From positions 31,643-95,642 of IMG/VR virus record IMGVR_UViG_3300013426_000028: 64,000 bases of DNA; one strand, 5' to 3'. Source of the stretch: a virus. Taxonomy: Duplodnaviria; Caudoviricetes. This document shows positions 6,448 to 48,470 of the stretch, one piece after another. Below the pieces are notes generated by a model. It made no database searches. It saw only the letters and a list, made by a program, of their open reading frames with translations, and had not been told where the DNA came from. The position numbers and the translations under genes were made by a program. How positions within the stretch are numbered: the first letter of the stretch is position 1; each line of letters begins with the position of its first letter.

Positions 6448-7812
6448 ATGCTAACAAAAGAAAAATTAGAAGAAATCGTAAGCAGACCTGAATATGATTT
6501 TCTAAGAACTAATCCTAGATTAAAGGATAAAATCTTATTCTTGACTGTCGGAGGCAGCTATGCTTATGGAACTAATGTTGAAGGTTCAGATATCGACATT
6601 AGAGGAGTTGCGATGAATAGTATCGAAGATATTTTAGGCGGTACAACATTTGAACAATTCCAAAATGATGAAACTGACACAGTTATCTATTCAGTAAACA
6701 AGTTTATTAAATTAGTAACTGATTGTAATCCTAATGTTATTGAAATGTTATTTTGTGAGCCTGATCAATACATTTGGGTATCTCCATTAGGACAATTATT
6801 ATTAGATAACAAACATCTATTTTTATCTCAAAAAGCTTATTATACCTTTGGTGGATATGCTAGAGCACAATTAAATAGATTAGAAAATGCTTTATGTAGA
6901 GGCAACTACTTTACACAAGCACAAAAAGAAGAACATATTGCAAGAAGTGTAGAAAATTCTATTGATAGCTTTAGTGAAAGATATTCAGCAATGATACAAG
7001 GCAAAGGAAGTATCAAACTTCATACTGATAAAGTAGATGAAAATGGTGATAGGATCATCACAACTGATATGACAATGAAAGATGTCCCTTTAAGAGAAGT
7101 TCGTTCTATGTTAGAAGAAATGACTAATATTGTAAGAGATTATGACAAGTCTGGTGGCTGGAGAAATACAAAGAAAGATATCCCGCATCTAAACAAACAT
7201 ATTACGCATCTAGTAAGACTATATTATATGGGCATTGAAATTTTACAAACTGGTACTCTACATACTTATAGAAGTAAAGAACATCAATTATTAATGAGCA
7301 TCAGAAGTGGATTATTCTTAGACGAAAAGAATAATTTAAAACCCGAATTTTACACCGTATTAGATGATTTAGAAAATAAGTTAAAAACAGCTTTAGATAA
7401 TAGTAAATTACCTAAAAAAGCTAGACGTGATGAAATCAAACAATTACAAATTAAAATTAATTTATTAATGATTAAAATGGATGACTATAAAGAATATACG
7501 TTGCCAGAGTTTGATTTAGACAAAAAAGAAAAGGTTATTAACAATAAAAATTACAAAATTACTTTATCTGAAATTTTAGATATGAACCCAAACTATACCG
7601 CAATTCATTGTAATACCGAAGAAAAAGCAAATGCTTTATTAATAGTATTAAATAGAGTGGGAAAGGAATGGATTAGTGGAGATTCATATTTAGCAGAAAA
7701 TAATTGGCGATTTGAAAAAACTAAAACTTGCTATGGTTTAGATGGGTCATATGGAATTTCTGAATGGTATGATGATGTCTACGAATTCGATGATATTGAT
7801 TTAAATAATTAA
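6448..7812 (+). CDS. Pol-beta-like nucleotidyltransferase (RlaP/Nuc-transf type) with extra C-terminal phage domain
   Basis: GGSYAYGTNVEGSDIDIRGV, CNPNVIEML, KHITHLVRL. Confidence 0.85.
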   Translation: MLTKEKLEEIVSRPEYDFLRTNPRLKDKILFLTVGGSYAYGTNVEGSDIDIRGVAMNSIEDILGGTTFEQFQNDETDTVIYSVNKFIKLVTDCNPNVIEMLFCEPDQYIWVSPLGQLLLDNKHLFLSQKAYYTFGGYARAQLNRLENALCRGNYFTQAQKEEHIARSVENSIDSFSERYSAMIQGKGSIKLHTDKVDENGDRIITTDMTMKDVPLREVRSMLEEMTNIVRDYDKSGGWRNTKKDIPHLNKHITHLVRLYYMGIEILQTGTLHTYRSKEHQLLMSIRSGLFLDEKNNLKPEFYTVLDDLENKLKTALDNSKLPKKARRDEIKQLQIKINLLMIKMDDYKEYTLPEFDLDKKEKVINNKNYKITLSEILDMNPNYTAIHCNTEEKANALLIVLNRVGKEWISGDSYLAENNWRFEKTKTCYGLDGSYGISEWYDDVYEFDDIDLNN

Positions 7813-9087: not shown

Positions 9088-10554
9088 ATGGAAAGAAAAG
9101 ATATTGAACAACTTATAAAATATGCTTTGCCAGCTGAAGTATTCACAATCTTTAACAGTTTAGAAAATAAAGGCTTTGAAACTTATTTAGTGGGTGGAAG
9201 TGTTAGAGACATGTGCTTCAATGCTATTTTTCACGATAATAAAGATGCTCGTTATCGCAACGTTCACGATTTTGATTTTGCAACCGCTGCTCTTCCTGAA
9301 GAAATTATGGAAGCTTTTAAAGATTATGAAGTAATTCCAACTGGGTTAAAACACGGCACAGTTACAGTTAGGATCAACCATCAAAATTTTGAAATAACAA
9401 CATTCAGAATAGATGGTAAATATGACGATTTTCGTCATCCTGACTCTGTATCATTCACTAGATCTATAGAAGAAGATTTAAGTCGTCGTGACTTCACAAT
9501 GAATGCTATTGCTTATAGTCCTACAAGAGGCCTTGTAGATCCTTTTAATGGTATCGAAGATATTGACATTATAAGATGTGTTGGAAATCCAGGACAAAGA
9601 TTTCAAGAAGATCCTTTAAGAATTCTTAGAGCATCACGCTTTGCTCTTCAATTTATGATACCTATTGAAATAGATACATATGAAGCTGCTCAACAAAACG
9701 TGAATTTAATTCATCATTTATCAAAAGAAAGAGTAACCGATGAATTCAAAAAAATGTTAAATATTGACCCTCTAAAAATCACTTATTCTATATTTAATAC
9801 TTATTATGGTTTTATTTTAGAAGAATATTTTCCTACATTAAAAGAATATGCAGATTTTCGTCCTACTTTTAATGAAAATCCTCAAATTTGGAACAAGCAT
9901 CTTCGTATACAAGATCATCAAGTTAATGTGTTTTTAAGAGTAAAATACTTATATCCTATGTTTGATTTTGCATTATATATAGCTGCTTTATGTCACGACT
10001 TAGGAAAGAAAAATGCAGAAACATTAACTCTAACAGACGATAAAACTGCAATATATCATTATTATAGACATCCAGAAGAAAGTCTTAAGATTTTTGAACA
10101 AGAAATATTGCCACGTTTATCTTTATCAAACAGAGAAATTGATGAAGCAAAAACATTGATTTTATATCATGATATGCGTATTGCACCTACTAAAAAATCA
10201 GTAAAAAAAGCTTTACAAAAAATGTCTCCATCGGTGTTATTTATATTATTTAAATTGCAAGAAGCTGACCTTGATGACCATAATTTTGCTAATTTATTAA
10301 GAGAGAAAAATATATATCGTGATTTATATGTAGCACAATATATCGCTTCAGAAATTCATAAAGATATCCAAGAATGTTTCACCATAAAACAACTTAAAAT
10401 CAATGGTAGAGACCTTCTAAATTTAGGAATAGAACCAGGCCCTAAAATTGGTGAAATTCTTAGAGAATTATTAAAAAAAGTTATTGATGAAGAGATACAA
10501 AATGATCCTAAATCTCTTCTACAATACGCGCAACATTTAGCCACAAAAGAATGA
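9088..10554 (+). CDS. cca: CCA tRNA nucleotidyltransferase (class II) with HD domain
   Basis: LVGGSVRD, DFDFAT, EITTFR, DLSRRDFTMNA, EDPLRILR, ERV, HDLGK, LKINGRDL. Confidence 0.93.
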   Translation: MERKDIEQLIKYALPAEVFTIFNSLENKGFETYLVGGSVRDMCFNAIFHDNKDARYRNVHDFDFATAALPEEIMEAFKDYEVIPTGLKHGTVTVRINHQNFEITTFRIDGKYDDFRHPDSVSFTRSIEEDLSRRDFTMNAIAYSPTRGLVDPFNGIEDIDIIRCVGNPGQRFQEDPLRILRASRFALQFMIPIEIDTYEAAQQNVNLIHHLSKERVTDEFKKMLNIDPLKITYSIFNTYYGFILEEYFPTLKEYADFRPTFNENPQIWNKHLRIQDHQVNVFLRVKYLYPMFDFALYIAALCHDLGKKNAETLTLTDDKTAIYHYYRHPEESLKIFEQEILPRLSLSNREIDEAKTLILYHDMRIAPTKKSVKKALQKMSPSVLFILFKLQEADLDDHNFANLLREKNIYRDLYVAQYIASEIHKDIQECFTIKQLKINGRDLLNLGIEPGPKIGEILRELLKKVIDEEIQNDPKSLLQYAQHLATKE

Positions 10555-36564: not shown

Positions 36565-36828
36565 TTATAAAATGTCGATTAAATCGTCTATAGTTGATAA
36601 AGCACGAGGAGTTTCTAATGTCCCCATGCTATAATCATAACAATAATAATCAGATTGTTCTTCATTAATAGCTTTTAAGATATGTATTGCAACAAACAAA
36701 TTATCATCATTAATTTTGTCTATTGCAAAATCTTTAAGGCTATCATACGAAGTAATAGAATAACCTTCTTCTTCCATTTCTTTGACAGCATCGTCAAAGC
36801 CTAATTTGTTAATTTTGTTTTTAGTCAT
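36565..36828 (-). CDS. Hypothetical protein
   Basis: RBS. Confidence 0.7.
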   Translation of the reverse strand: MTKNKINKLGFDDAVKEMEEEGYSITSYDSLKDFAIDKINDDNLFVAIHILKAINEEQSDYYCYDYSMGTLETPRALSTIDDLIDIL

Positions 36829-36835
36829 AATATTT

Positions 36836-36926
36836 TCCTCCGAGTTTTACCGACTTCTCTGTCCAGCTATATCTTTTTATACTAATTAAATGTTTGCTAA
36901 GCATTTAATGTTAGTAAGCCTTTTAA
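36836..36926 (-). ncRNA. ~90-nt repeated structured leader, copy 1
   Basis: Near-identical to 38756-38845; two predicted pseudoknots ending at the SD. Confidence 0.7.
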
Positions 36927-37133
36927 TTATTCTACAATAATTAAACAAGGACGATATAAACTTCCTTTGTTTGTTATATTGTATCGCTTTCTATTAAAAG
37001 TGAAACTCCAATTATTAAAATTAACAATTTTTGTAATTTTACCATTGGTAATTTCTATTTTACCATATGGATGATAATGATTATTACCATATAATGGAAT
37101 TGTGTATTTTACAACTCGATTAATTATAATCAT
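36927..37133 (-). CDS. Hypothetical protein
   Basis: RBS AAGGAGGG. Confidence 0.65.
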   Translation of the reverse strand: MIIINRVVKYTIPLYGNNHYHPYGKIEITNGKITKIVNFNNWSFTFNRKRYNITNKGSLYRPCLIIVE

Positions 37134-38108: not shown

Positions 38109-38747
38109 TTATTCTTCATCAAAACTATCATTCATTGATTGGAAGCATTCATCATCAATGCCTGTGATGAACAGTTCCCTTTCTTTTGCTGATAACTCAG
38201 GCAGAGCATCTTGGATATGTTCATATCCTGGTTCTGCAAAATACCATCTGAGCCAATTCTCAAATTGATCTTTGTTGATATCAACAGTGTGATATTCCTC
38301 ACATATAGGACATAATCTTCCTATTGTGAGAATACCTTTTTTGTAATTTTGGAGATGGATCTGGAAATCTCCAATAATTAATGGATCGAATCTATAACAA
38401 AAGACTCGTCCAATATATTCAATTACATTGATATTATTTTCAAATCTTTGAATATCATCAATGCAAATCATTGGAGTGAACTTGTAATTGACTCCTACAA
38501 AAAGATTGAACGAAGTAGCTTTTCCTTCTTCATCATATCCAAGTTCGATTTCAACAGGATATAAATCTGTTGTAAGAACATAAGAATTTTTCTTTTGACT
38601 TTTAATATTCATATTGCCGAATTTGACATTATAAATATCTCTCGTCTCTTCGTTGCGACATGAGTCCCAATCGGTTTCTTCAATTGAGACTTCTTTGGTT
38701 GCTAATAAAGCTTTAACCAAAGCTTCGATTAAAATAATGTTTTTCAT
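38109..38747 (-). CDS. Hypothetical protein with C-terminal CPIC...IQDALPELS..ERELFITG domain
   Basis: Common phage C-terminal motif; RBS. Confidence 0.75.
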   Translation of the reverse strand: MKNIILIEALVKALLATKEVSIEETDWDSCRNEETRDIYNVKFGNMNIKSQKKNSYVLTTDLYPVEIELGYDEEGKATSFNLFVGVNYKFTPMICIDDIQRFENNINVIEYIGRVFCYRFDPLIIGDFQIHLQNYKKGILTIGRLCPICEEYHTVDINKDQFENWLRWYFAEPGYEHIQDALPELSAKERELFITGIDDECFQSMNDSFDEE

Positions 38748-38755
38748 ATTTTGTT

Positions 38756-38863
38756 CCTCCGAGTTTTATAGACTTCACTGTCTAGTTATATCTTTTTATA
38801 CTAGTCAAATGTTTACTAAGCATTTAATATTAGTAAGCCTTTTAACGTCTTGCTCAGGACGTG
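38756..38863 (-). ncRNA. ~90-nt repeated leader, copy 2, preceded by post-stop pseudoknot A
   Basis: Repeat of 36836-36926 plus ACGTCCTGAGCAAGACGTTAAAAGGCTTA. Confidence 0.7.
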
Positions 38864-38866
38864 AAA

Positions 38867-39718
38867 TTATTCTTCAAGAATTTTTTGTAATTGAGAAATA
38901 ATTTCTTTTATATTTTCTGGTGATGTTTCTTCTGGTTTTTGATAACCATTACATTCTTCTTCATTCCATAAATGAAGAGTTTTTTGTCTTAACTCTTCTA
39001 TAAAATTTAATATCACTGGCATCTGAGCAATTTCTATTTCTGTTTCTGAGAAATAGAAATATTCATATTCTTCAACAGAAAAATCTATCCTAAAGGAATA
39101 TCTATTCCCTTCATAACTATATTGGCTGTGCTCGTCGGTTAATGTAATTTCGAATAATTCATCTCGGAGATTATCACTTCTAATTGTGGCGGTTAATGAT
39201 AATTCACCGTCATAATCGTGAACTCCAAGTTCACAATATTTTAATAAATTTAATTTTGTGAATTTTTCACAAAATTTATTTAATTTTGTTGTTTTTTTAA
39301 TGATTTGTTCATATCTTTTTTTGATTATAGAATTAAAGAAATTTGATATCTCTTTAATTGGAGGAAATTCCGCCTCCCAATCTTTTTGAAAAACTTTCCA
39401 GCTTGGTGCTGGTTGTTCTTCTGATCTTTCGTCGAAAATAGTGACATCGTTACTATCGACTTCTTCAAAATCGAATTCTTTGCCGTCTTTGTAGTCGGCT
39501 TCAATGGCAGGTCCAATTAATAAACCATTCATTGAGAAAGAATCGACTTTTCCTTTCCACATATGCATTGTTGTTAGGACATAATTATAATATCCTAAAA
39601 AGATAAAAAGGACTTCTCCATTATCTTTTTGAATATTTACATCCATTTCTATTTCAACTAATTTCCATTTTTTCAAATGTTTTAATTGAAATAATTGTGT
39701 TAATAATGTTTTTTCCAT
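38867..39718 (-). CDS. Acidic hypothetical protein
   Basis: 283-aa ORF. Confidence 0.75.
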   Translation of the reverse strand: MEKTLLTQLFQLKHLKKWKLVEIEMDVNIQKDNGEVLFIFLGYYNYVLTTMHMWKGKVDSFSMNGLLIGPAIEADYKDGKEFDFEEVDSNDVTIFDERSEEQPAPSWKVFQKDWEAEFPPIKEISNFFNSIIKKRYEQIIKKTTKLNKFCEKFTKLNLLKYCELGVHDYDGELSLTATIRSDNLRDELFEITLTDEHSQYSYEGNRYSFRIDFSVEEYEYFYFSETEIEIAQMPVILNFIEELRQKTLHLWNEEECNGYQKPEETSPENIKEIISQLQKILEE

Positions 39719-39733
39719 AATGTTACCCCCTGT

Positions 39734-39792
39734 AACCGATTCTTGATGTTATCTCCATCGCTTGTGTGGTTTTATTTATTTCACAAGATTTT
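39734..39792 (-). ncRNA. Two-hairpin leader motif, copy 1
   Basis: Covarying twin of 41895-41946. Confidence 0.65.
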
Positions 39793-39840
39793 ACGTTTTG
39801 AGTTTCAAGGATTACGTTAAACCTATGATGATTTTAATCA

Positions 39841-39905
39841 CCACCCCAACTCGAAAGAGTTGGACGCACTGAGCCTAATAGCTATTTAATGTCGCTCAGT
39901 CGACG
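39841..39905 (-). ncRNA. Pistol-like self-cleaving ribozyme
   Basis: GUCG-ACUGAG-CGAC-AUUAAAUAG-CUA-UUAGGCUCAGU-GCG-P3 hairpin-G(G)UGG; pseudoknot ACUGAGC/GCUCAGU; P2 short. Confidence 0.6.
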
Positions 39906-39932
39906 GAGCAGTTTAACGTCTTACTCAGGACA
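39905..39932 (-). ncRNA. Post-stop pseudoknot B
   Basis: UGUC-CUGAGUAA-GACG-UUAAAC-UGCUC. Confidence 0.6.
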
Positions 39933-39936
39933 TTTT

Positions 39937-39957
39937 TTATGTGAATATGTGTGTCAT
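39937..39957 (-). CDS. 6-codon minigene MTHIFT
   Basis: Perfect AAAGGAGGTGA SD; stop lies 5 nt before pseudoknot B. Confidence 0.55.
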   Translation of the reverse strand: MTHIFT

Positions 39958-40441
39958 AGTATTCACCTCCTTTCTTCCAACATTGACAGAAAGAATATAA
40001 ATCTGTATGTTGGATTATAATGTTCCATTTAGGTTAAAATAAAAAACCTTTCCTCTTTAAGCAGTTGCTATGACTACAACACTCTCTATAAAGAGGCTCG
40101 AATTTTTTAAAGAGTTAATTAATATACTCAGAAAGCATATCCTTTCTCTTGCAACTTTTTTCAGACTTTATTGCCTAATGTCTGGTTATTTTTTTGAAGT
40201 ATTACTTATTATATTAATAAGTATATTCTAATACTTCCGAGAATTTATAGCCTGGGTAAAGACTCCTCTTCTCATTGTTTATTTTTTTATACTGTGCTTA
40301 TACGATGCCACTAACGCTTTTATCACGTTTAAAATTAACAAGAAATATTATTCCTTACATCATACATAGGACCTTATCCAATGTACAATGCTTTTCTTTC
40401 GAAAAATAATCTTAATTGTAATAAAGGGGGATTCTCCCTTG

Positions 40442-40876
40442 TTATTTTATTTTTCTTAGGATTCTATCCAAGAAAGGATATTCTCCTTCTTTAAAGTAAT
40501 ATCTTGCTAATTTTTTAAGCAAGATATCACCTTCTCCCTTGAGGTGTGTCCATTTAATGGACTTAACTCCCTTAGTTGGAGTTGCTTCTCTGGGATTGTG
40601 GAAAGAAAATTGGGTTTTATTTCCTCCTAAGAAGTCTTCCTTCCATTCAAAATATCGAATGGTTGAAGGGTAACCATTTTGATCTGGCTCTTCCCTTTCA
40701 ACATAAGATATTGTTGAATGTTTGGAAGTTTTTAATAAAGCTAAAGCTTTTTTGTATAATCTTTCTTTAGCTTTATAAAAATCTTTTCGTTCATAATAAT
40801 CAGCATAATGTGCTGATGTATTAGCAGCTTGTGCTAATATAATGAAACGAATGATTTTAATGTCCTTATTAGACAT
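40442..40876 (-). CDS. Conserved phage hypothetical protein
   Basis: AQAANTSA...YKAKE...QFSFH. Confidence 0.75.
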   Translation of the reverse strand: MSNKDIKIIRFIILAQAANTSAHYADYYERKDFYKAKERLYKKALALLKTSKHSTISYVEREEPDQNGYPSTIRYFEWKEDFLGGNKTQFSFHNPREATPTKGVKSIKWTHLKGEGDILLKKLARYYFKEGEYPFLDRILRKIK

Positions 40877-41024
40877 TCTTTTCCTCCTTCCTTTTTAAAC
40901 ATAATCAGTATGTTTACCCTTCTATCTAATATAATTACATATAGATAGAAACATACTTTTTATGTTTTTATTACTTTTAGCCAGTTAACTGTTATGTCTT
41001 ACGTAAGTCATAACTTACCGAATG

Positions 41025-41074
41025 CTTGGGCTTGTGACCAAGACCGCCGCATTAATACTCTCGTACCACTCTGC
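41025..41074 (-). ncRNA. Twister ribozyme, P5-type permutation
   Basis: GCAGAGUG-GUAC(GAGA)GUAU-U^AAUGC-GGC-GGU-CUUGG-UCACAAGC-CCAAG; P1, P2, P4 and both pseudoknots (CAC/GUG, GC/GC) present. Confidence 0.88.
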
Positions 41075-41133
41075 GTGTTTTCTTTTAAATAGTGTTTTTA
41101 ACGTGGTTGGCGCTTCCACGGTCTATTGATAGA

Positions 41134-41310
41134 TTATTCTTTAATTAATGACCTATCAATTTTTATGACACGAACGTTTTTATGTTCGTTCCAGCGCAAG
41201 AACTTTGCTTCTTGTTCTGCGTCAGAACGTTTATAATAAACGTTCGCATCCATTTGTTCAACACCTGTACCACAAGTGTTAAACAAAATTATGTAAATGC
41301 TTTTTGACAT
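41134..41310 (-). CDS. 58-aa hypothetical protein (not in ORF track)
   Basis: AAAGGAG RBS; MSKSIYIILFNTCGTGVEQMDANVYYKRSDAEQEAKFLRW... Confidence 0.7.
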   Translation of the reverse strand: MSKSIYIILFNTCGTGVEQMDANVYYKRSDAEQEAKFLRWNEHKNVRVIKIDRSLIKE

Positions 41311-41340
41311 AATCTTTTTCTCCTTTCTTTATAATTAAAA

Positions 41341-41370
41341 AAGCCTTTTAACGTCATGCTTAGGACGTTA
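41341..41370 (-). ncRNA. Post-stop pseudoknot C
   Basis: UAACGUC-CUAAGCAU-GACGUUA-AAAG-GCUU. Confidence 0.6.
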
Positions 41371-41372
41371 TT

Positions 41373-41882
41373 TTATTTAACGTACGCCGTAAATGTGGCG
41401 TAATTTTTTGTTAAATAAAATTCTTTACGAAGATTATCTCCGTAATTAAATTTTATTTTAACATATTCTTCAAATTCTTCTAGGCTTAAAGGCCTATTGA
41501 ATGTGAAGAAATATTTGTCATAGTCAATGCCAGTTCTTCTGGCGTGCCAGTCAGAAAAACCGACTACCTTGTAGTTGTGTTTACAACGCAAGGCGTATTC
41601 GTCAGACCAGATAGAAATTACTGACCCGTCGATACACTTAACTCTAATGAACCCTGTTTTTGGGTCATTAAAGTCTATAATACCATCAAAACTGATGGTT
41701 AAAATGTCTTCGGTGTTTTTTGCACCAATGAAGACTAAACTGTCTTTTTCTCCACAGTGCTTTGTCACCTTGACAAAAAATTTTTTGTTTTTCTTAAAAA
41801 ATTTTGTGATGACTGGATGAGTGGAAATTAAACCACTTTCCAAAACGAATGTAGACATAATCATATTAATAGCATTTTCCAT
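41373..41882 (-). CDS. Hypothetical protein
   Basis: GGAGG RBS. Confidence 0.7.
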   Translation of the reverse strand: MENAINMIMSTFVLESGLISTHPVITKFFKKNKKFFVKVTKHCGEKDSLVFIGAKNTEDILTISFDGIIDFNDPKTGFIRVKCIDGSVISIWSDEYALRCKHNYKVVGFSDWHARRTGIDYDKYFFTFNRPLSLEEFEEYVKIKFNYGDNLRKEFYLTKNYATFTAYVK

Positions 41883-43612: not shown

Positions 43613-45123
43613 TTTAATCCTCCTTTTTTAACTCAATGAGTATATTTTTACGCATTTCCAACATTCTAAGTTTTTTATATCCTACGGATGCATTTACTCT
43701 AGTACCATCCAAAAGTCTTAAATCCATTCTTCCTGTAGTACGCCTACCGAAAATGAAGCAATCCTGTTGTTTCCAACGAACCCTGTCGTAAAGCCTAAAT
43801 CCCATTACTTCATAAGGCGCTTGATTTCGTTTCCGTATACCACCTTTTAGAATTGTATTCTTATGTATCTGACGATTATGACAACGTACTTTCTTTTGAT
43901 AGTACACATACTGGTCAGATACTGCTTTCGGATTACCACTGATGCACCTTGCATCTATATAATGGTCTTTTGGTAAATTGTTTTTAATGCGTGTGTTCTT
44001 TGTGATGTATCCATAAGTCAGACCGACATTTGGATACATCTCTTTTAATCTGTTGTAGAATGCCCAACGCATAATACCCATAAAAGCAGCATCTTTAAAA
44101 GGCATTCCTCTTTTAATGTTTTTAGGTAATTGAATAGTTCCATTATGATAACCGTTGTGACAGGTTTCACATAAGGTAATCAAATTATTTGGTGCATTAC
44201 CACCAGTTTTGCGGCTTTCAATATGATGAACATTCAAAATTTTATCTTTTGACTTGCCTTTACAGCATTGGCAGGTGTGTCCATCTCTGAATAAGACATA
44301 TTCTCGAACGTTCCAAAAATTCAACTGTTCACCTTCTTGATATTCTGTTCCACTAATCGTAGGGTTCTTAATTTTCTGGATATCAAAACTTGCAACTTCT
44401 ACAATTATTTGAGATACAGGTAAAATTTCATGCACTCTACTGATGACTGTCAAATGAGTATTTACTTTATTTTGCACAGAAGGTGCTAACCAACCATCTT
44501 TTCTCTTGCGATTGTCGAAACGTGGTTTTCTATACCTTGTTTTACGATTTCTACGGGTTCTACGATTTTGTCTACGAACAGACAATAAATTTACTATATC
44601 GTTTCGTAATTCTACATTCGATTCAAAAAGAACCTTATTTTTTGTAGTAGCGGAGATACCAACATGTTTACTGCCAGTATCCACACCTAAGTTAATATCT
44701 TGTGTATAGTTTGTGTTACTATACAAAAGTTGTATTGTAAACGGACATCTTTTAACTACCGTTGCCCTTTTAGATTTCAGCAGAATACGCACTTTAGCAT
44801 GGTTTTCCGTAGGCATTAAAGGCTGTCCGTTTGAGTTTAAAACATAAACCATAAACCTGTACTCCTTTCCAAATCCTAAATGGATTTAATTACTCACTCC
44901 GAAGAGTGGTCAGTGTACCATCGTCAATGTTAATAAGAGGTTTTTATATGTAACACTATTCCTATACCACAGAACTGTTTAATTACATACCTTAGAGCTA
45001 CAGACTTGGTACTACATCCGTAGATAACTATATATTCTCTAATAACGTAGCCTTTATTTCAAGGCTTAGACTACTCACTTAGGGTTGCGCAACCCCACGG
45101 GCTTACCCATGGGTATTAGTGAG
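43565..45123 (-). mobile_element. Non-autonomous IS200/IS605-family IscB (OMEGA) element, ~1559 bp
   Basis: Matching subterminal hairpins (CCATAGGCTTGCCTGTGG 43585-43602; CCCACGGGCTTACCCATGGG 45094-45113), omegaRNA plus iscB, ATGA flank, no tnpA. Confidence 0.85.
43614..44852 (-). CDS. iscB: RNA-guided endonuclease IscB
   Basis: PLMP motif, RuvC-I GVDTGS, Arg-rich bridge helix RRQNRRTRR, RuvC-II IVE, HNH (CQCC..VHHI..NLITLCETCH), RuvC-III HYIDA. Confidence 0.95.
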   Translation of the reverse strand: MVYVLNSNGQPLMPTENHAKVRILLKSKRATVVKRCPFTIQLLYSNTNYTQDINLGVDTGSKHVGISATTKNKVLFESNVELRNDIVNLLSVRRQNRRTRRNRKTRYRKPRFDNRKRKDGWLAPSVQNKVNTHLTVISRVHEILPVSQIIVEVASFDIQKIKNPTISGTEYQEGEQLNFWNVREYVLFRDGHTCQCCKGKSKDKILNVHHIESRKTGGNAPNNLITLCETCHNGYHNGTIQLPKNIKRGMPFKDAAFMGIMRWAFYNRLKEMYPNVGLTYGYITKNTRIKNNLPKDHYIDARCISGNPKAVSDQYVYYQKKVRCHNRQIHKNTILKGGIRKRNQAPYEVMGFRLYDRVRWKQQDCFIFGRRTTGRMDLRLLDGTRVNASVGYKKLRMLEMRKNILIELKKED

Positions 45124-45140
45124 TTTGAGAAGAACCTCCT
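44853..45140 (-). ncRNA. omegaRNA (HEARO-like) scaffold with 5' guide
   Basis: CTCACT/AGTGAG first stem, TAGTCTAAG, CTACGTT, GGATG..CCAAGTC..CTCT, TTAAACAG, AACATTGACGA directly upstream of iscB. Confidence 0.88.
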
Positions 45141-48100
45141 TTTATAATTTCATTATTAATAACATTATTAATATCATCTTCTATGGCATCGTGAGGGGCA
45201 AGATAGTCATCATCATAACCGAAGAGACCATTAAGCATACGTTGAATGGAGACTTCAAGTTGAGGGGTGACTTTCTTAAGGGAATATTTGACACCAAGAT
45301 ATTCGGTGCCGTTTGGATCTCTTATCGGGCAATAAGAATCGCCGTATGGAATAAGAGAAACGATTTGATCTTCTAAGACGTCCCAAGCGAATGCCCAATT
45401 GAAAGAAGAATAAAGAGGTGCTAAACGAGAGCAATAGAAGAGGAATTCATCACCAGGCATATTATGCTCAACAAGTTGATTTTGAAGGTCACCGATAAGT
45501 GATTCAATAAGAGAAGAGCGAAGCTCGGAATAGGTGTCTGGTGAGAGGTCGGAGAATTGAGAAGAAGAAAGGGACTCAAGATGTTTGATTTGTTTACGGG
45601 CAATGTAAATTTTATAAAGCGAACGAACGAAGTCTAATTTTTCCTGAGAGAAGAGGGGGGCGTAATGAGCTTCGAAAGTAGGAAGCATTGATACGTTTTT
45701 CTTCTTAACGTCGCCGTTTTTGGCAAACTTGATGTCGAAGTCAACATTCTCGAACTCGCGACATAATTTATTCATTGTGCAATTTGAGGTGATAAGGGGC
45801 GAATACTTTTGATACTTGCGAACAAGATTTGTTTCTTCTGGGGTTTTGTTTTCCTTGCGAAGGAGTTTCTTGAACTTAATACCGAACATATCGCGGCTTA
45901 CCTCGTTATAGGCGGACTCAAATTGTTTAAAGCGTTGATTAAGCTCTGGATAGAGGTAACGGAAGAAATAAGGTTTTTTGGAAATAACCATGGCATTATG
46001 TTTAAACTTTGCGAGGCGTTCTTCTGGGGTGTCGTCTTCGGTTATTTGCTCGAAATGTTTCCAAGAACGTGGGAGGGACGGCTTGTCGGCGCCCTTAATG
46101 CGGTCGATTTCTTGACCAACAATTTCACGTAAGAGCTTAATACGCGTCATAATTTCATTGTATTGATCTTGTTGCGCTGGATTATCGAAAATTGCTGCCA
46201 TTGCATAAAAGATAGTGGCGCAATTTGAGAAGCCTCCAACGCCTGTTCCGAAACCTTTGGAAACGGTTTTAGTTATGTTTGCGACCGTCATTTTTTGGAC
46301 GGGTGCAATACCTTTTTCGTATGTTATAATATTTTGTTCTTTGTGAGAACCTTTTAAGAAGCAAGGATTGTCTGTGGATAGGACTATATCTCCCGATGAT
46401 ACCCTCGGTTTCCCGATATTTATAGGAGAAGGGGACTAGACTATATCTTAACTGATTAATAACTGTTTGTGGTCATTAATCAGATGTTGGCACTTCGATT
46501 TAATGGATTTTATAATCAAGCTAATATCACCTGATAACCAACCTTGTTTAAGGGCTCTACTCTACTCATTTATTTTTAACAGATTTTCTCTATTAATATA
46601 CTTTCGATAGTCGTTTGAGTTTTTAAACCTTTTATGTAATTTGATTTAATTTACCACAGGATTGTCGTCTCCATTACGAGGTACGAGTTCCCTGTTAGCA
46701 ATGCTATTATTCGCCATTATCCTGCGAAACACTTCACGTTAGCATTACACCCAGATTTACTAATCTGGTTCACCAACTTTTACTATGACTAGTAATATAT
46801 CAATCATAGTCAGCATCGCTTAAGCGAGCTGTAGCAGCATCATATGTGCTGAATACTATTCCAGAATATAGGTGGCTTAACCACCGCTTCGCCTCATCAG
46901 AGTTTAATACGTCTGATGGGTCATGTTCGTGCATATCAATTTGAGGACTGCGACAGAGATCAACTCTCGGTACATTCCTATCGCTCCAGAATTTAGAATA
47001 TATTTGATCTCTTCCAACTACCCCTATTGGTTCTAATCCTAACGCCGACTGACATTGAGCAACAGGGTCGGACAGCATAAACTGGTAGTTACCATGAACC
47101 CAGATTTTGCCTATCTTGGCACGATTAATTGTTTCAGTAATATTTTTATAGATTTTATGTTGTATATAACTATCTTTAAGGAAGTTGTTGTTTTTAACTA
47201 AAGCCTTCATATAATTTGTTTGAGCGGTTCCATAAAGAGTATTAAACATAGAGTCTTCGTTTTTGGGCCCAAATGTAAATAGAAGTGTTGAGAGAGTCTC
47301 ACCTGTACAAATTTGTTTTATCCAATCTACAGTTGGTTTAATTAAATTCTTTATGTCATCATCAGATAATGTTAATGATTGAATGTATTGATAATTAGCA
47401 AGAATATATTCTTCGTCTTGTTTTTTTGGATAACGTGCAACTCCCCAAGGAATATCTCCCTTTTCTGCGTAAGATAGATATTCTTGCCAGCTGTTATAAT
47501 ATTTGTGCGTTTTGAATTGTGATTCTGAAAGAAGAACATCTATTTCATCAATATTATATTCCTTCCCCCATTTATCACGAATTGTCGAAATGCCTTGTTC
47601 GTGAGCATAACCTCTAAAATCAAATGTCACAAGATTCCCTTTTACGAAAGCAGAACGAGCCACGAATGAACAAGGTGTATAAGAGAGATCCATATCTTGT
47701 CCCCATAGTGTGGCAAATGAAGGATCGATTAACCCTTGTCCATCTGCACAGTTGAGGTCTAAGTCCATTACTCTTTTTTCAATGATAGATTCTCCTTTGT
47801 CGTTTTTACAAATGAAATCAACAGGTTCATCTTTTAAAGTTCTGTGGAAATCTTTAATAACACATACTCTTGGTGTTCTTACCCATAAAACAGAAGAGAA
47901 GGATAAGGCGAAATATGCGGTATACTTTGCTAACACGAATTCTGTTGTTTTTTTATCCAAACCACAATTTAATGTTTCTACTACTTGTTTACGATATTTT
48001 GTGTTAATAAATGTGGCGGTGTTTCGTCTAATTTGACCTGACCCGCTGCATAAATATGAATAGTGAACTCCGTTACACACAAATCCTTTTGTTCTTATTG

Positions 48101-48470
48101 CGTGAAAGTCACTTTTCTTTTTGTCGATGCAAATGTTAATGATGTCCTTAACAAATAGAAGTTTTGTGATGTGATGGTTTAATACGTTTGCTTCTTTGTA
48201 GAACCCTTGTTTTTTATAATAATGCATTTTGTCTCTAAAGCGTGCAATGTAATTAAATATTTCTCTATGGTCACGATAATCGTTATGCATATGTCGGAGT
48301 TGTCTGAATACCATATTGTCTCCGATTGAAACAATGTTAGTGTCTTTCATTCCTTGCGACATTGTATAGTTAATTTCGTAGAACCCTGATTCCTTGTTAT
48401 AATTGTCAGGTTTCACGACCATAGAGGCTGGTAATTTGAAAATTTGATATAAGTTTTGTATTACTGGCAT
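45116..48470 (-). CDS. Single-subunit phage RNA polymerase (SPbeta YonO-like, RdRP-like double-psi barrel); join(48470..46803,46393..45116), 981 aa
   Basis: SGQIR, DGQGLI, RSAFVKG, RSP; catalytic ADYD|GD restored in frame by intron removal; EIDRIKG, KPYFFRY. Confidence 0.9.
46394..46802 (-). ncRNA. Group I intron (409 nt, ORF-less) in the RNAP gene
   Basis: Exon ends in U; P1 ACUAUGAU/GUCAUAGU with U.G at the splice site; R ACGACUA, S AAGAUAUAGUCU; P3 GUUGGU/GCCAAC; terminal G. Confidence 0.93.

What the first reader, a model, noticed from the sequence alone, without database searches (positions are those of the whole stretch)
38834..41375. Covarying H-type pseudoknot placed 5-6 nt after UAA stop codons, once behind a dedicated minigene
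Seen: three copies of GUCCURAGYAWGACGUUAAANNGCUY (38834-38862, 39905-39932, 41341-41370). Stem 1 is (AC)GUC/GAC(GU); stem 2 varies compatibly (UGAGC/GCUUA, GAGUA/UGCUC, AAGC/GCUU). GUCC starts 6, 5 and 6 nt after a UAA. Copy B has no long gene upstream, only MTHIFT* with a perfect SD, as if a terminating ribosome must be parked there. This spacing is like recoding pseudoknots at the mRNA entry channel (established for viruses), but readthrough in copies A and C does not fuse to the next gene. Inference: a ribosome-coupled stalling, antitermination or RNase J roadblock element.
Basis: partly seen in the sequence, partly recalled or inferred. Interest (0 to 1): 0.78.

Follow-up and report, generated by a model that had tools for sequence, protein, structure and literature searches.

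The report
Coremin-like RNA pseudoknots after phage genes
The three repeats are real copies of a 28-base knotted RNA that many unrelated phages place just behind stop codons. It closely matches the plant-virus 'coremin' knot that stops RNA-degrading enzymes and ribosomes, so it is probably a protein-free roadblock on phage messages, though nobody has tested this.

Summary
There are three copies, on the minus (sense) strand, where 0.02 are expected by chance. GUCC starts 6, 5 and 6 nt after a UAA.

The motif has no Rfam match. Every pair of stem 2 and the closing pair of stem 1 covary, so it is a true H-type RNA pseudoknot.

Its sequence and layout (CGUC, C, loop, GACG, UUAAAC, loop partner) match the coremin Xrn1-resistant RNA of plant and fungal RNA viruses, especially its Watson-Crick form. 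I found no paper linking coremin to phages. Earlier agents of this scan reached the same reading on other genomes.

The link to stop codons is real and general. In 125 independent contexts the spacing peaks at exactly 6 nt, with a sharp lower edge. That is the closest a structure can sit without being unwound by a terminating ribosome. More than half of all copies have no adjacent stop, and the minigene is unique to copy B.

Best reading: a mechanical roadblock that marks the boundaries of mRNA segments. Which enzyme it stops, and from which side, is open. A strict RNase J explanation is weakened by a Vibrio phage copy and by hosts without a clear RNase J.

Copy B abuts a pistol ribozyme, and a related hairpin precedes the twister ribozyme.

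The parts
38834..38862 (-). Pseudoknot copy A. Stem 1 is (A)CGUC/GACG(U), L1 is C, stem 2 is UGAGC/GCUUA, and the linker is UUAAAAG. It starts 6 nt after the TAA of the 283-aa ORF.
   Evidence: 51.5 bits
38867..38869 (-). Stop codon (UAA) of ORF 38867-39718, 6 nt before GUCC of copy A.
39906..39933 (-). Pseudoknot copy B. Stem 1 is (A)UGUC/GACG(U) and stem 2 is GAGUA/UGCUC. It directly abuts the pistol ribozyme.
   Evidence: 44.3 bits
39937..39970 (-). Mini-ORF upstream of copy B: SD GGAGGUG (39964-39970), AUG (39955-39957), MTHIFT, UAA (39937-39939). The stop lies 5 nt before GUCC.
   Evidence: No equivalent was found at other copies.
39840..39905 (-). Pistol self-cleaving ribozyme. It begins 0-1 nt after stem 2 of copy B.
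   Evidence: 54.4 bits, gathering score 34.5
41341..41368 (-). Pseudoknot copy C. Stem 1 is ACGUC/GACGU and stem 2 is AAGC/GCUU. It is followed at once by a U-run and then by the SD of the 58-aa ORF.
   Evidence: (51.4 bits)
41373..41375 (-). Stop codon (UAA) of ORF 41373-41882, 6 nt before GUCC of copy C.
41094..41120 (-). Related hairpin module CGUGG-AAGCGCCAA-CCACG-UUAAAAAC. It lies 13 nt after the stop of the 58-aa ORF and 18 nt before the twister ribozyme. It shares the CGU..ACG-UUAAA core, but no stem 2 partner was found.
41026..41075 (-). Type-P5 twister self-cleaving ribozyme.
   Evidence: 44.8 bits, gathering score 37.6

Best explanation
Each copy is a compact, 27-29-nt H-type RNA pseudoknot in the sense transcript.

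Anatomy:
- Stem 1: four pairs, CGUC/GACG.
- L1: a single C.
- Stem 2: 4-7 Watson-Crick pairs between the hairpin loop and the 3' flank.
- Linker: UUAAAC, A-rich, lying along stem 1.

It is the phage and bacterial counterpart of the coremin-type exoribonuclease-resistant RNA of plant and fungal RNA viruses.

Inferred function: it works without protein as a mechanical roadblock inside polycistronic phage RNA. It would stop enzymes that thread or scan RNA from the 5' side. Candidates are RNase J where present, RNase E scanning, and sliding ribosomes. That would give the downstream cistron, tRNA or ribozyme a protected, defined 5' boundary.

The knot also resists the ribosome. It can therefore sit no closer to an upstream stop codon than about 6 nt, where it just clears the mRNA entry channel of a terminating ribosome. 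Compact phage genomes pile it up at exactly that distance.

Shown here: the fold, the family, the spacing rule and the likeness to coremin. Inferred: nuclease resistance in bacteria, and the direction in which it matters.
For: Fold:
- Stem 2 columns 16/36 pair as GC 52, GU 23, AU 15, CG 5, UA 4.
- In 40 divergent copies all four core stem 2 pairs and the closing stem 1 pair change on both sides. The covariation score is 0.375 against 0.171 in shuffles (0 of 500 reach it), and 86.6% of cells pair against 17-44% when partners are slid.
- G-U pairs place the structure on the sense RNA strand.

Family:
- The covariance model finds extra divergent copies, up to about 10 per locus.
- Rfam gives no match even at E up to 10.

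Coremin likeness:
- The coremin 20-mer GUCCGAAGACGUUAAACUAC shares GUCC, GACGUUAAACU and the final C with the phage consensus. Some phage copies carry GACGUUAAACUAC exactly.
- The published model has the same layout: S1, a one-nucleotide L1, loop-to-spacer S2, and linker adenosines in the S1 minor groove. The RNA stalls Xrn1 and scanning ribosomes, and drives up to 30% -1 frameshifting. The frameshift screen was run in E. coli.
- One natural Watson-Crick coremin lies 8 nt after its last ORF.

Spacing:
- 50 of 146 copies have a stop triplet exactly 6 nt before GUCC, against a background of about 9.
- Over 125 clusters with unrelated upstream proteins, counts by spacing are: 6 nt = 29, 7 = 13, 8 = 14, 9 = 12, under 6 = 6.

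Context:
- The next start codon usually lies 10-30 nt downstream.
- In a Bacillus prophage the motif sits just before the scaffold and major capsid genes. In Lactobacillus phage mv4 it sits before g20 and the major capsid gene g34.
- It also precedes tRNAs.
Against: - No experiment exists for any phage copy, and no RNA reads could be obtained.
- Coremin needs a second hairpin (hp2) for Xrn1 resistance. Phage copies show no enrichment of a downstream hairpin (z -0.35 against -0.34 in controls, p 0.95).
- RNase J cannot be the only target. An N4-like Vibrio phage carries a copy. Only 1 of 5 host assemblies tested has an RNase J above the NCBIfam cut-off, though these are MAGs and binning may be wrong.
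- In L209, four copies are each followed about 8 nt later by a type III hammerhead cleavage site. There the knot ends up at the 3' end of the upstream RNA.
- In copy B the pistol ribozyme would cut the knot off from the downstream gene.
- 18% of copies are followed at once by a U-run, and a few per cent follow terminator-like hairpins.
Confidence: 0.42

Rival explanations
1. The knot is a 3'-end stabiliser of the upstream cistron. The RNA is cut just downstream, by a ribozyme or a host endonuclease. The knot, left 6 nt after the stop codon, then blocks 3'-to-5' exonucleases such as PNPase, RNase II and RNase R. This would parallel the 3' hairpins left by RNase III on T7 mRNAs.
For: - The sharp coupling is to the upstream stop, while the distance to the next start is broad.
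- L209 has four units of ORF, 7-13 nt, knot, then a type III hammerhead whose cleavage site lies about 8 nt after the knot.
- Copy B and L094 are followed by pistol ribozymes.
- 22 of 135 viral copies have an upstream ORF end within 15 nt but no downstream gene within 100 nt.
- Coremin and the one natural Watson-Crick coremin sit in 3' UTRs.
Against: - Resistance to 3' exonucleases has never been shown for coremin. Known xrRNAs are directional and act against 5' exonucleases.
- Ribozyme-adjacent copies are only about 2-3% of all copies.
- Many copies lack an upstream ORF but have a downstream one: 9 viral and 30 genomic with a start within 60 nt.
- Some copies follow terminator-like hairpins.
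Confidence: 0.25
2. The knot is coupled to the ribosome. Abutting the entry channel of a terminating ribosome, it would control what happens after termination. It could block 70S or 30S sliding and unwanted re-initiation, slow termination, or gate translation of the next cistron.
For: - The exact 6-nt peak matches recoding geometry.
- Coremin stalls scanning ribosomes and stimulates frameshifting.
- Copy B has a well-formed SD plus a 6-codon ORF ending 5 nt upstream.
- In a Vibrio phage the knot fills nearly the whole 36-nt gap between a stop and the next AUG.
- In a chromosomal microgene family the stop codon lies inside the knot.
- In Erysipelotrichaceae the knot is nested in a helix that sequesters the SD.
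Against: - More than half of the copies have no ORF end within 15 nt.
- Copies occur before tRNAs and ribozymes and after terminator-like hairpins.
- The distribution has a hard lower edge and a decaying tail. That is what a steric limit plus genome compaction would give, with no coupling needed.
- The minigene is not seen elsewhere.
Confidence: 0.15
3. The knot acts at the level of transcription. As it forms in the RNA exit channel it would pause or terminate RNA polymerase, with stem 2 plus a U-run acting as a knotted intrinsic terminator. Alternatively it could modify the polymerase.
For: - 46 of 255 copies, including copy C, are followed immediately by a U-run.
- Many carriers encode their own RNA polymerase. 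These include T7-like-looking contigs, an N4-like Vibrio phage, crAss-like phages, and this window's PF05183 protein.
Against: - 82% of copies have no U-run.
- Copies lie inside operons 10-30 nt before the next start codon.
- Conservation is the same in phages that use host RNA polymerase and in those that use unrelated phage polymerases.
Confidence: 0.07
4. The knot is a small ligand-sensing aptamer or a minimal ribozyme related to pistol.
For: - About 17 near-invariant nucleotides include unpaired ones.
- The topology resembles the preQ1-I fold and the pistol core. Pistol's P1 plus linker reads GUCG-N6-CGAC-(A/G)UUAAAUAG, with the loop pairing downstream.
- It lies close to ribozymes.
- In one lineage it is nested in an SD-sequestering helix.
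Against: - Up to about 10 copies per phage locus sit in front of unrelated genes.
- There is no conserved expression platform.
- There is no equivalent of pistol's P2/P3 or of its G-U cleavage site after stem 2.
- The conserved unpaired bases are explained by the triplex contacts proposed for coremin.
Confidence: 0.06
5. The repeat is a DNA-level site, such as a promoter, a protein-binding site or a recombination site.
For: The repeats are intergenic. The mv4 GenBank record marks a putative -10 hexamer ending 5 nt before the motif.
Against: - Compensatory changes preserve pairing but not sequence.
- G-U pairs work only on the sense RNA strand.
- The motif runs the same way as the genes.
- The same motif occurs in phages of many phyla with different transcription machinery.
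Confidence: 0.02

Closest known systems
Coremin motif (xrRNA-C) of beny-, cucumo- and many other RNA viruses, and its Watson-Crick form xrRNA-WCC (Dilweg, Olsthoorn and co-workers: PMC6546385, PMC10520033, PMC10321173)
   Same: - Hairpin stem CGUC/GACG.
- A pyrimidine (C) as the single L1 nucleotide.
- The spacer GUUAAAC(U).
- Pairing of hairpin-loop bases with the end of the spacer, giving an H-type pseudoknot.
- Size of about 20-30 nt.
- Position shortly after an ORF end: 8 nt in SPlV5.
- Loop sizes of 4-8 nt are tolerated. A heptaloop CGAGUAA is reported as resistant, and copy B's loop is CUGAGUAA.
   Different: - The carriers are dsDNA phages and bacteria, whose hosts have no Xrn1.
- Stem 2 has 4-7 Watson-Crick pairs, against 3 or non-canonical pairs in coremin.
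- The second loop base is U, not the G of the YGAD/YGNNAD consensus.
- The downstream hairpin hp2, required for Xrn1 resistance, is not conserved.
- There are many copies per genome, between genes, rather than one in a 3' UTR.
- Nuclease resistance is untested.
Pistol self-cleaving ribozyme (RF02679)
   Same: The 5' core has the same topology and a similar sequence: a short hairpin, (A/G)UUAAA(U), and a loop that pairs downstream. The two occur in the same phage regions and are directly adjacent in copy B and in L094.
   Different: The pseudoknot has no P2 or P3 and no G-U cleavage site after stem 2. Rfam's pistol model does not match the three copies, even at E up to 10.
Luteovirus-type frameshifting pseudoknots (BWYV, PEMV) and other recoding pseudoknots
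   Same: A small H-type pseudoknot with a one-nucleotide L1 and an A-rich L3. The 5-8 nt spacing from the A-site codon matches the 6-nt peak found here.
   Different: There is no slippery heptamer and no extended reading frame. The A-site codon here is a stop, and readthrough does not fuse to the next gene.
Flavivirus and tombusvirus xrRNAs
   Same: Proposed protein-free mechanical block to processive enzymes.
   Different: Those are larger ring-forming folds with unrelated sequences.
Bacterial 5' mRNA stabilisers (ermC and cryIIIA STAB-SD, the SP82 RNase III site, 5' hairpins) and T7 RNase III 3' hairpins
   Same: Intercistronic elements that set stable ends on processed phage or bacterial mRNAs.
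   Different: Those rely on bound ribosomes, plain hairpins or RNase III. None is a conserved pseudoknot.

Membership tests
Coremin-type xrRNA (xrRNA-C / xrRNA-WCC) | 5' hairpin with stem CGUC/GACG | tested here: met
   GUC/GAC is invariant in 119 copies (fixed by the search pattern) and kept in 39 of 40 divergent copies; mv4 has a flipped middle pair. The closing pair covaries: CG 31, UA 2, UG 2, AU 1, GC 1.
Coremin-type xrRNA (xrRNA-C / xrRNA-WCC) | Conserved spacer GUUAAAC after the hairpin | tested here: met
   All three window copies carry GACGUUAAA. The family tolerates only rare changes such as GCUAAA, AUUAAA and ACUAAA.
Coremin-type xrRNA (xrRNA-C / xrRNA-WCC) | Single L1 pyrimidine (C, with U tolerated) before the loop bases that pair | tested here: met
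   Column 14 is C in all copies aligned. The requirement comes from PMC10321173.
Coremin-type xrRNA (xrRNA-C / xrRNA-WCC) | Loop-to-spacer pairing (S2) that forms an H-type pseudoknot | tested here: met
   Four core pairs covary with several Watson-Crick types each. The helix is longer than the 3 pairs of xrRNA-WCC.
Coremin-type xrRNA (xrRNA-C / xrRNA-WCC) | Loop consensus YGAD / YGNNAD (G at the second loop position) | tested here: not met
   Phage loops read C-U-(G/A/C/U)-A-G-(C/U)-A-(U/A), so the second base is U. The published consensus was derived for 4- and 6-nt loops only.
Coremin-type xrRNA (xrRNA-C / xrRNA-WCC) | A second hairpin (hp2) directly downstream, required for Xrn1 resistance | tested here: not met
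   The 28 nt after stem 2 show no excess folding in 280 copies (z -0.35 against -0.34, p 0.95). 24% have a hairpin of 4 or more pairs starting within 4 nt. In this window, A is followed by a hairpin and B by pistol P1; C has only a weak one.
Coremin-type xrRNA (xrRNA-C / xrRNA-WCC) | Stalls a 5'-to-3' exoribonuclease one nucleotide before the hairpin | not testable with these tools
   This needs RNase J1 or Xrn1 digestion, or end mapping.
Pistol ribozyme (RF02679) | P2 and P3 helices and a G-U cleavage site 3' of the pseudoknot strand; match to the Rfam model | tested here: not met
   cmscan at E up to 10 matches only 39840-39905, not the three copies. The flanks lack P2, P3 and GCGU.
Programmed recoding signal (-1 frameshift or readthrough pseudoknot) | A slippery heptamer or leaky stop, plus an extended frame that encodes a fusion product | tested here: not met
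   There is no slippery site 5-8 nt upstream. Readthrough of A and C meets stops and is out of frame with the next gene (read).
Any Rfam 15 family | Score at or near a family's threshold | tested here: not met
   No hit overlaps the copies at the gathering threshold or at E up to 10.

The most novel reading that the evidence does not exclude
One tiny RNA fold, CGU..ACG-UUAAA plus loop pairing, may be a universal protein-free roadblock module used across domains. It would appear as the coremin xrRNA in eukaryotic RNA viruses, as intercistronic punctuation in phages of many bacterial phyla, as the core of the pistol ribozyme, and in bacterial microgenes whose stop codon lies inside the knot. In bacteria it would be the first natural exoribonuclease-resistant RNA. 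It would stop RNase J and/or RNase E scanning and be impassable enough to ribosomes that genomes keep it at least 6 nt from stop codons.
Probability: 0.33. Interest if true: 0.9.

Novelty: new variant of a known kind. Interest (0 to 1): 0.77.

Why it matters
Exoribonuclease-resistant RNAs are known only from viruses of eukaryotes. A near-identical knot spread through phages and bacterial mobile DNA would show that the principle also works in bacteria. It would explain how phages set stable boundaries inside long transcripts without RNase III sites or terminators.

It would also give a 28-nt portable part for stabilising or insulating bacterial mRNAs. It would make the unsolved coremin structure approachable through hundreds of natural covarying sequences and through its likeness to the solved pistol core.

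The 6-nt spacing rule is a natural in vivo readout of how close a stable structure may come to a terminating ribosome.

Tried and rejected
- Rfam at the gathering threshold and at E up to 10: no family for the motif.
- tRNA scan of the window: none found.
- Megablast of the region against cultured phages: no match.
- Relatives of the 283-aa ORF in viral contigs, sought to test whether the minigene is conserved: none found.
- The 1993 mv4 paper by PubMed id, to see whether a 5' end was mapped at the knot: not held.
- String searches for the phage form of the motif in papers: only unrelated hits. Searches for coremin or xrRNA together with phage or RNase J found no paper linking them.
- The idea that carriers are restricted to hosts with RNase J is not upheld. 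E. coli genomes lack the motif (1 marginal hit in 28 Gb). Most cultured-phage hits are from Firmicutes, Actinobacteria, cyanobacteria, alphaproteobacteria and crAss-like phages. But N4-like Vibrio phages carry it, and 4 of 5 host MAGs tested lack an RNase J above the cut-off.
- hp2 as a general feature: rejected.
- NCBIfam search for the microproteins whose stop lies in the knot: no family.
- Reading the in-loop UGA as selenocysteine: rejected, because sister genes end at a UAG one codon earlier.
- Cross-pairing between copy B and the pistol loop: not conserved in L094, by eye.
- The CGTGG..CCACGTTAAAA scan returns about as many hits as chance would give. Only the subgroup followed by a twister ribozyme, and the hits with loop complementarity, are meaningful.

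Full report
**What is in the window.** The motif lies on the minus strand, the same strand as the surrounding small genes. Dinucleotide shuffles predict 0.02 matches. The full 95.6-kb IMG/VR virus record holds no other copy, by pattern or by covariance model. GUCC begins 6, 5 and 6 nt after a UAA, as stated. For copies A and C that UAA ends ORFs of 283 and 169 codons. For copy B it ends a six-codon ORF (MTHIFT) with GGAGGUG six nt before its AUG. Rfam finds a pistol ribozyme starting right after copy B (39840-39905), a type-P5 twister ribozyme (41026-41075), and a HEARO RNA beside an IscB-like gene. It finds nothing for the motif itself, even at E up to 10.

**It is a large, uncatalogued family.** A scan of one genome per GTDB species returned more than 118. 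A covariance model built on 119 copies then found many divergent copies in the same loci. BLAST against cultured phages found the motif in phages of:
- Bacillus, Lactobacillus, Latilactobacillus, Streptococcus, Staphylococcus, Anoxybacillus and Moorella;
- Arthrobacter and Mycobacterium;
- Synechococcus, Nostoc and Microcystis;
- Paracoccus;
- crAss-like phages and N4-like Vibrio phages.

E. coli genomes, 28 Gb in all, gave one marginal hit.

**The pseudoknot is real.** In the pattern-defined alignment, the free positions of stem 2 pair as GC 52, GU 23, AU 15, CG 5, UA 4, and as CG 83, UG 24, UA 5, GC 1. In 40 divergent copies, all four core stem 2 pairs and the closing pair of stem 1 change on both sides. 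The covariation score is 0.375 against 0.171 in shuffles, with none of 500 shuffles reaching it. Pairing is 86.6% against 17-44% when partners are slid. Lactobacillus phage mv4 even flips the middle pair of stem 1, giving GAC/GUC. G-U pairs place the structure on the sense RNA. The anatomy is:
- stem 1, CGUC/GACG, with an optional fifth A-U pair;
- a one-base L1, C;
- stem 2 of 4-7 pairs;
- one junction base;
- the linker UUAAAC or UUAAAAG.

**What it resembles.** A text search for GACGUUAAA led to the coremin motif, GUCCGAAGACGUUAAACUAC. Coremin is the Xrn1-resistant RNA of BNYVV, cucumoviruses and many other RNA viruses. The phage consensus shares its stem, its L1 C and its spacer. Some phage copies carry GACGUUAAACUAC exactly. 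Published work models coremin as an H-type pseudoknot with the same layout. That work describes a Watson-Crick form proven by compensatory mutations. It shows that the RNA stalls Xrn1 and scanning ribosomes and drives up to 30% -1 frameshifting. The frameshift screen was run in E. coli. One natural Watson-Crick example lies 8 nt after its last ORF.

Two coremin features are not met in phages. The second loop base is U, not G. The downstream hairpin hp2 is not enriched. I therefore file the phage knot as a new variant that works like coremin, not as a proven member. No paper in the library links coremin or xrRNAs to phages. Earlier agents of this scan reached the same reading on at least 18 other genomes. 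I had arrived at it independently.

**The stop-codon rule.**
- Of 146 copies, 50 have a stop triplet exactly 6 nt before GUCC, against a background of about 9 per offset. Of these, 34 close ORFs of 50 or more codons, and several of the rest are the second of two tandem stops.
- After collapsing copies whose upstream proteins are related, 125 clusters remain. Their spacings are: 6 nt = 29, 7 = 13, 8 = 14, 9 = 12, 10 = 7, under 6 = 6.
- Of 83 long frames that approach a viral copy, 64 stop 6-11 nt before it. Only 4 run on for 40 nt or more past the start of the knot.

With the stop in the A site, six spacer bases fill positions +7 to +12. The first stem 1 pair then sits at about +12, just outside the point (about +11) where the ribosome unwinds mRNA. 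That figure comes from established ribosome helicase work and is my own knowledge. A hard lower edge with a decaying tail is what a steric limit plus genome compaction would produce. So the spacing indicates that ribosomes avoid having to open this knot. It does not show that a ribosome must be parked there. More than half of all copies have no ORF end within 15 nt. No other copy has a minigene like B's. The other pseudoknot-plus-pistol locus, L094, has an ordinary 52-codon gene ending 10 nt upstream.

**Contexts and what they say about mechanism.** Most copies are intercistronic, with the next start 10-30 nt downstream. In a Bacillus prophage the knot lies just before the scaffold and major capsid genes. 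In phage mv4 it lies before g20 and the major capsid gene g34. Four copies precede tRNAs. These fit a 5' shield for the downstream RNA.

Other contexts point the other way:
- L209 has four units in which a type III hammerhead would cut about 8 nt after the knot.
- Copy B is followed by a pistol ribozyme.
- 18% of copies, including C, run straight into a U-tract.

These fit a 3' end element or a knotted terminator.

The RNase J idea has mixed support. Carriers are rare in enterobacteria. But an N4-like Vibrio phage has a copy 6 nt after a stop and 3 nt before the next AUG. Only 1 of 5 carrier assemblies shows an RNase J above the family cut-off, and those are MAGs that may be incomplete or mis-binned.

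My best reading is therefore a general mechanical roadblock. Protection from the 5' side is somewhat more likely than from the 3' side, and neither is shown.

**Verdict.** The element is absent from Rfam and, as far as I could search, from the literature on phages. It is a new variant of a known kind, and the decisive tests are easy to run.

Noticed in passing
L126:7337-7440, L153:4562-4660, L185:4282-4390, L205 and about 30 other GTDB loci: A chromosomal microgene family in Desulfobacterota, Omnitrophota and other MAGs. Each has a sigma70-like promoter, an AAGGAGGUG SD and a 19-23-codon ORF, reading MRWMFPHATHCS(T/A)CGS.. or MKRFxIPRVAHCSEGC..S. The stop codon is the UGA inside the pseudoknot loop, or a UAG overlapping the first G of the knot. 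An intrinsic terminator follows. Synonymous changes show the ORF is coding. No NCBIfam family matches. The ribosome must melt the knot to terminate.
   Followed up: partly
window 41094-41120 (-): The hairpin CGUGG-AAGCGCCAA-CCACG followed by UUAAAAAC lies 13 nt after the stop of the 58-aa ORF and 18 nt before the twister-P5 ribozyme. The same module, followed by a twister-like sequence, recurs in at least 7 large phage contigs: L247, L256, L261, L270, L273, L290 and L313. It shares the CGU..ACG-UUAAA core with the pseudoknot and with pistol P1 plus linker, but I found no stem 2 partner.
   Followed up: partly
window 41134-41310 (-) and L094:1592-1750: The 58-aa ORF between copy C and the twister ribozyme is related to the 52-aa ORF that precedes the pseudoknot plus pistol in L094 (48% identity over 27 aa, E 2e-8). 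It appears to be a small protein associated with ribozymes.
   Followed up: partly
window 36825-36926 and 38744-38845: A 102-nt leader is present twice at 88% identity. It comprises the 3' part of pseudoknot A, a hairpin, an AT-rich block and the SD. The second copy lacks the 5' hairpin of the pseudoknot and starts right at the stop of ORF 36927-37133. It may be a phage-specific promoter or leader unit.
   Followed up: partly
window 46800-48470 (-), 45116-46291 (-), 43614-45123 (-): A protein matches PF05183, the family that by my recollection includes YonO-like two-barrel RNA polymerases. Downstream lie an unassigned 391-aa ORF and then an IscB-like gene (RRXRR plus HNH) with its HEARO RNA.
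   Followed up: no
window 6448-7812 (+) and 9088-10554 (+): RlaP (RNA repair pathway nucleotidyltransferase) and a CCA-adding or poly(A) polymerase-like enzyme. An RNA end-repair toolkit is notable in a phage that also carries self-cleaving ribozymes.
   Followed up: no
L209 (GTDB genome locus), minus strand: Four tandem units, each of ORF stop, 7-13 nt, coremin-like pseudoknot and a type III hammerhead. Two of the hammerheads score above Rfam's gathering threshold. Cleavage would leave the pseudoknot about 8 nt from the new 3' end.
   Followed up: partly
L121, L122, L152, L157, L178, L186, L196, L207, L223 (Erysipelotrichaceae and Bacilli MAGs): Here the pseudoknot is nested inside a 9-bp helix (GGUAUUACCUC .. 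GAGGUAAUAC). The 3' strand of that helix contains the SD of a small gene (MKYYTL...). The layout looks regulatory.
   Followed up: no
L166, L173, L189, L014, L042 (Streptococcus and Gemella prophages): About 45 nt after the pseudoknot, just before the SD, lies a second coremin-like hairpin, GUC-UACAG-GAC-GUAAAAC. In L035 two or three variant knots stand in tandem.
   Followed up: no
L017, L106, L135, L074: Downstream of the pseudoknot lies a conserved GC-rich element, AGAGCCUCCACG..GGUGGAUAACCAAC. I did not run these four loci through Rfam except L135, which gave no hit at the gathering threshold. It may be another structured RNA.
   Followed up: no
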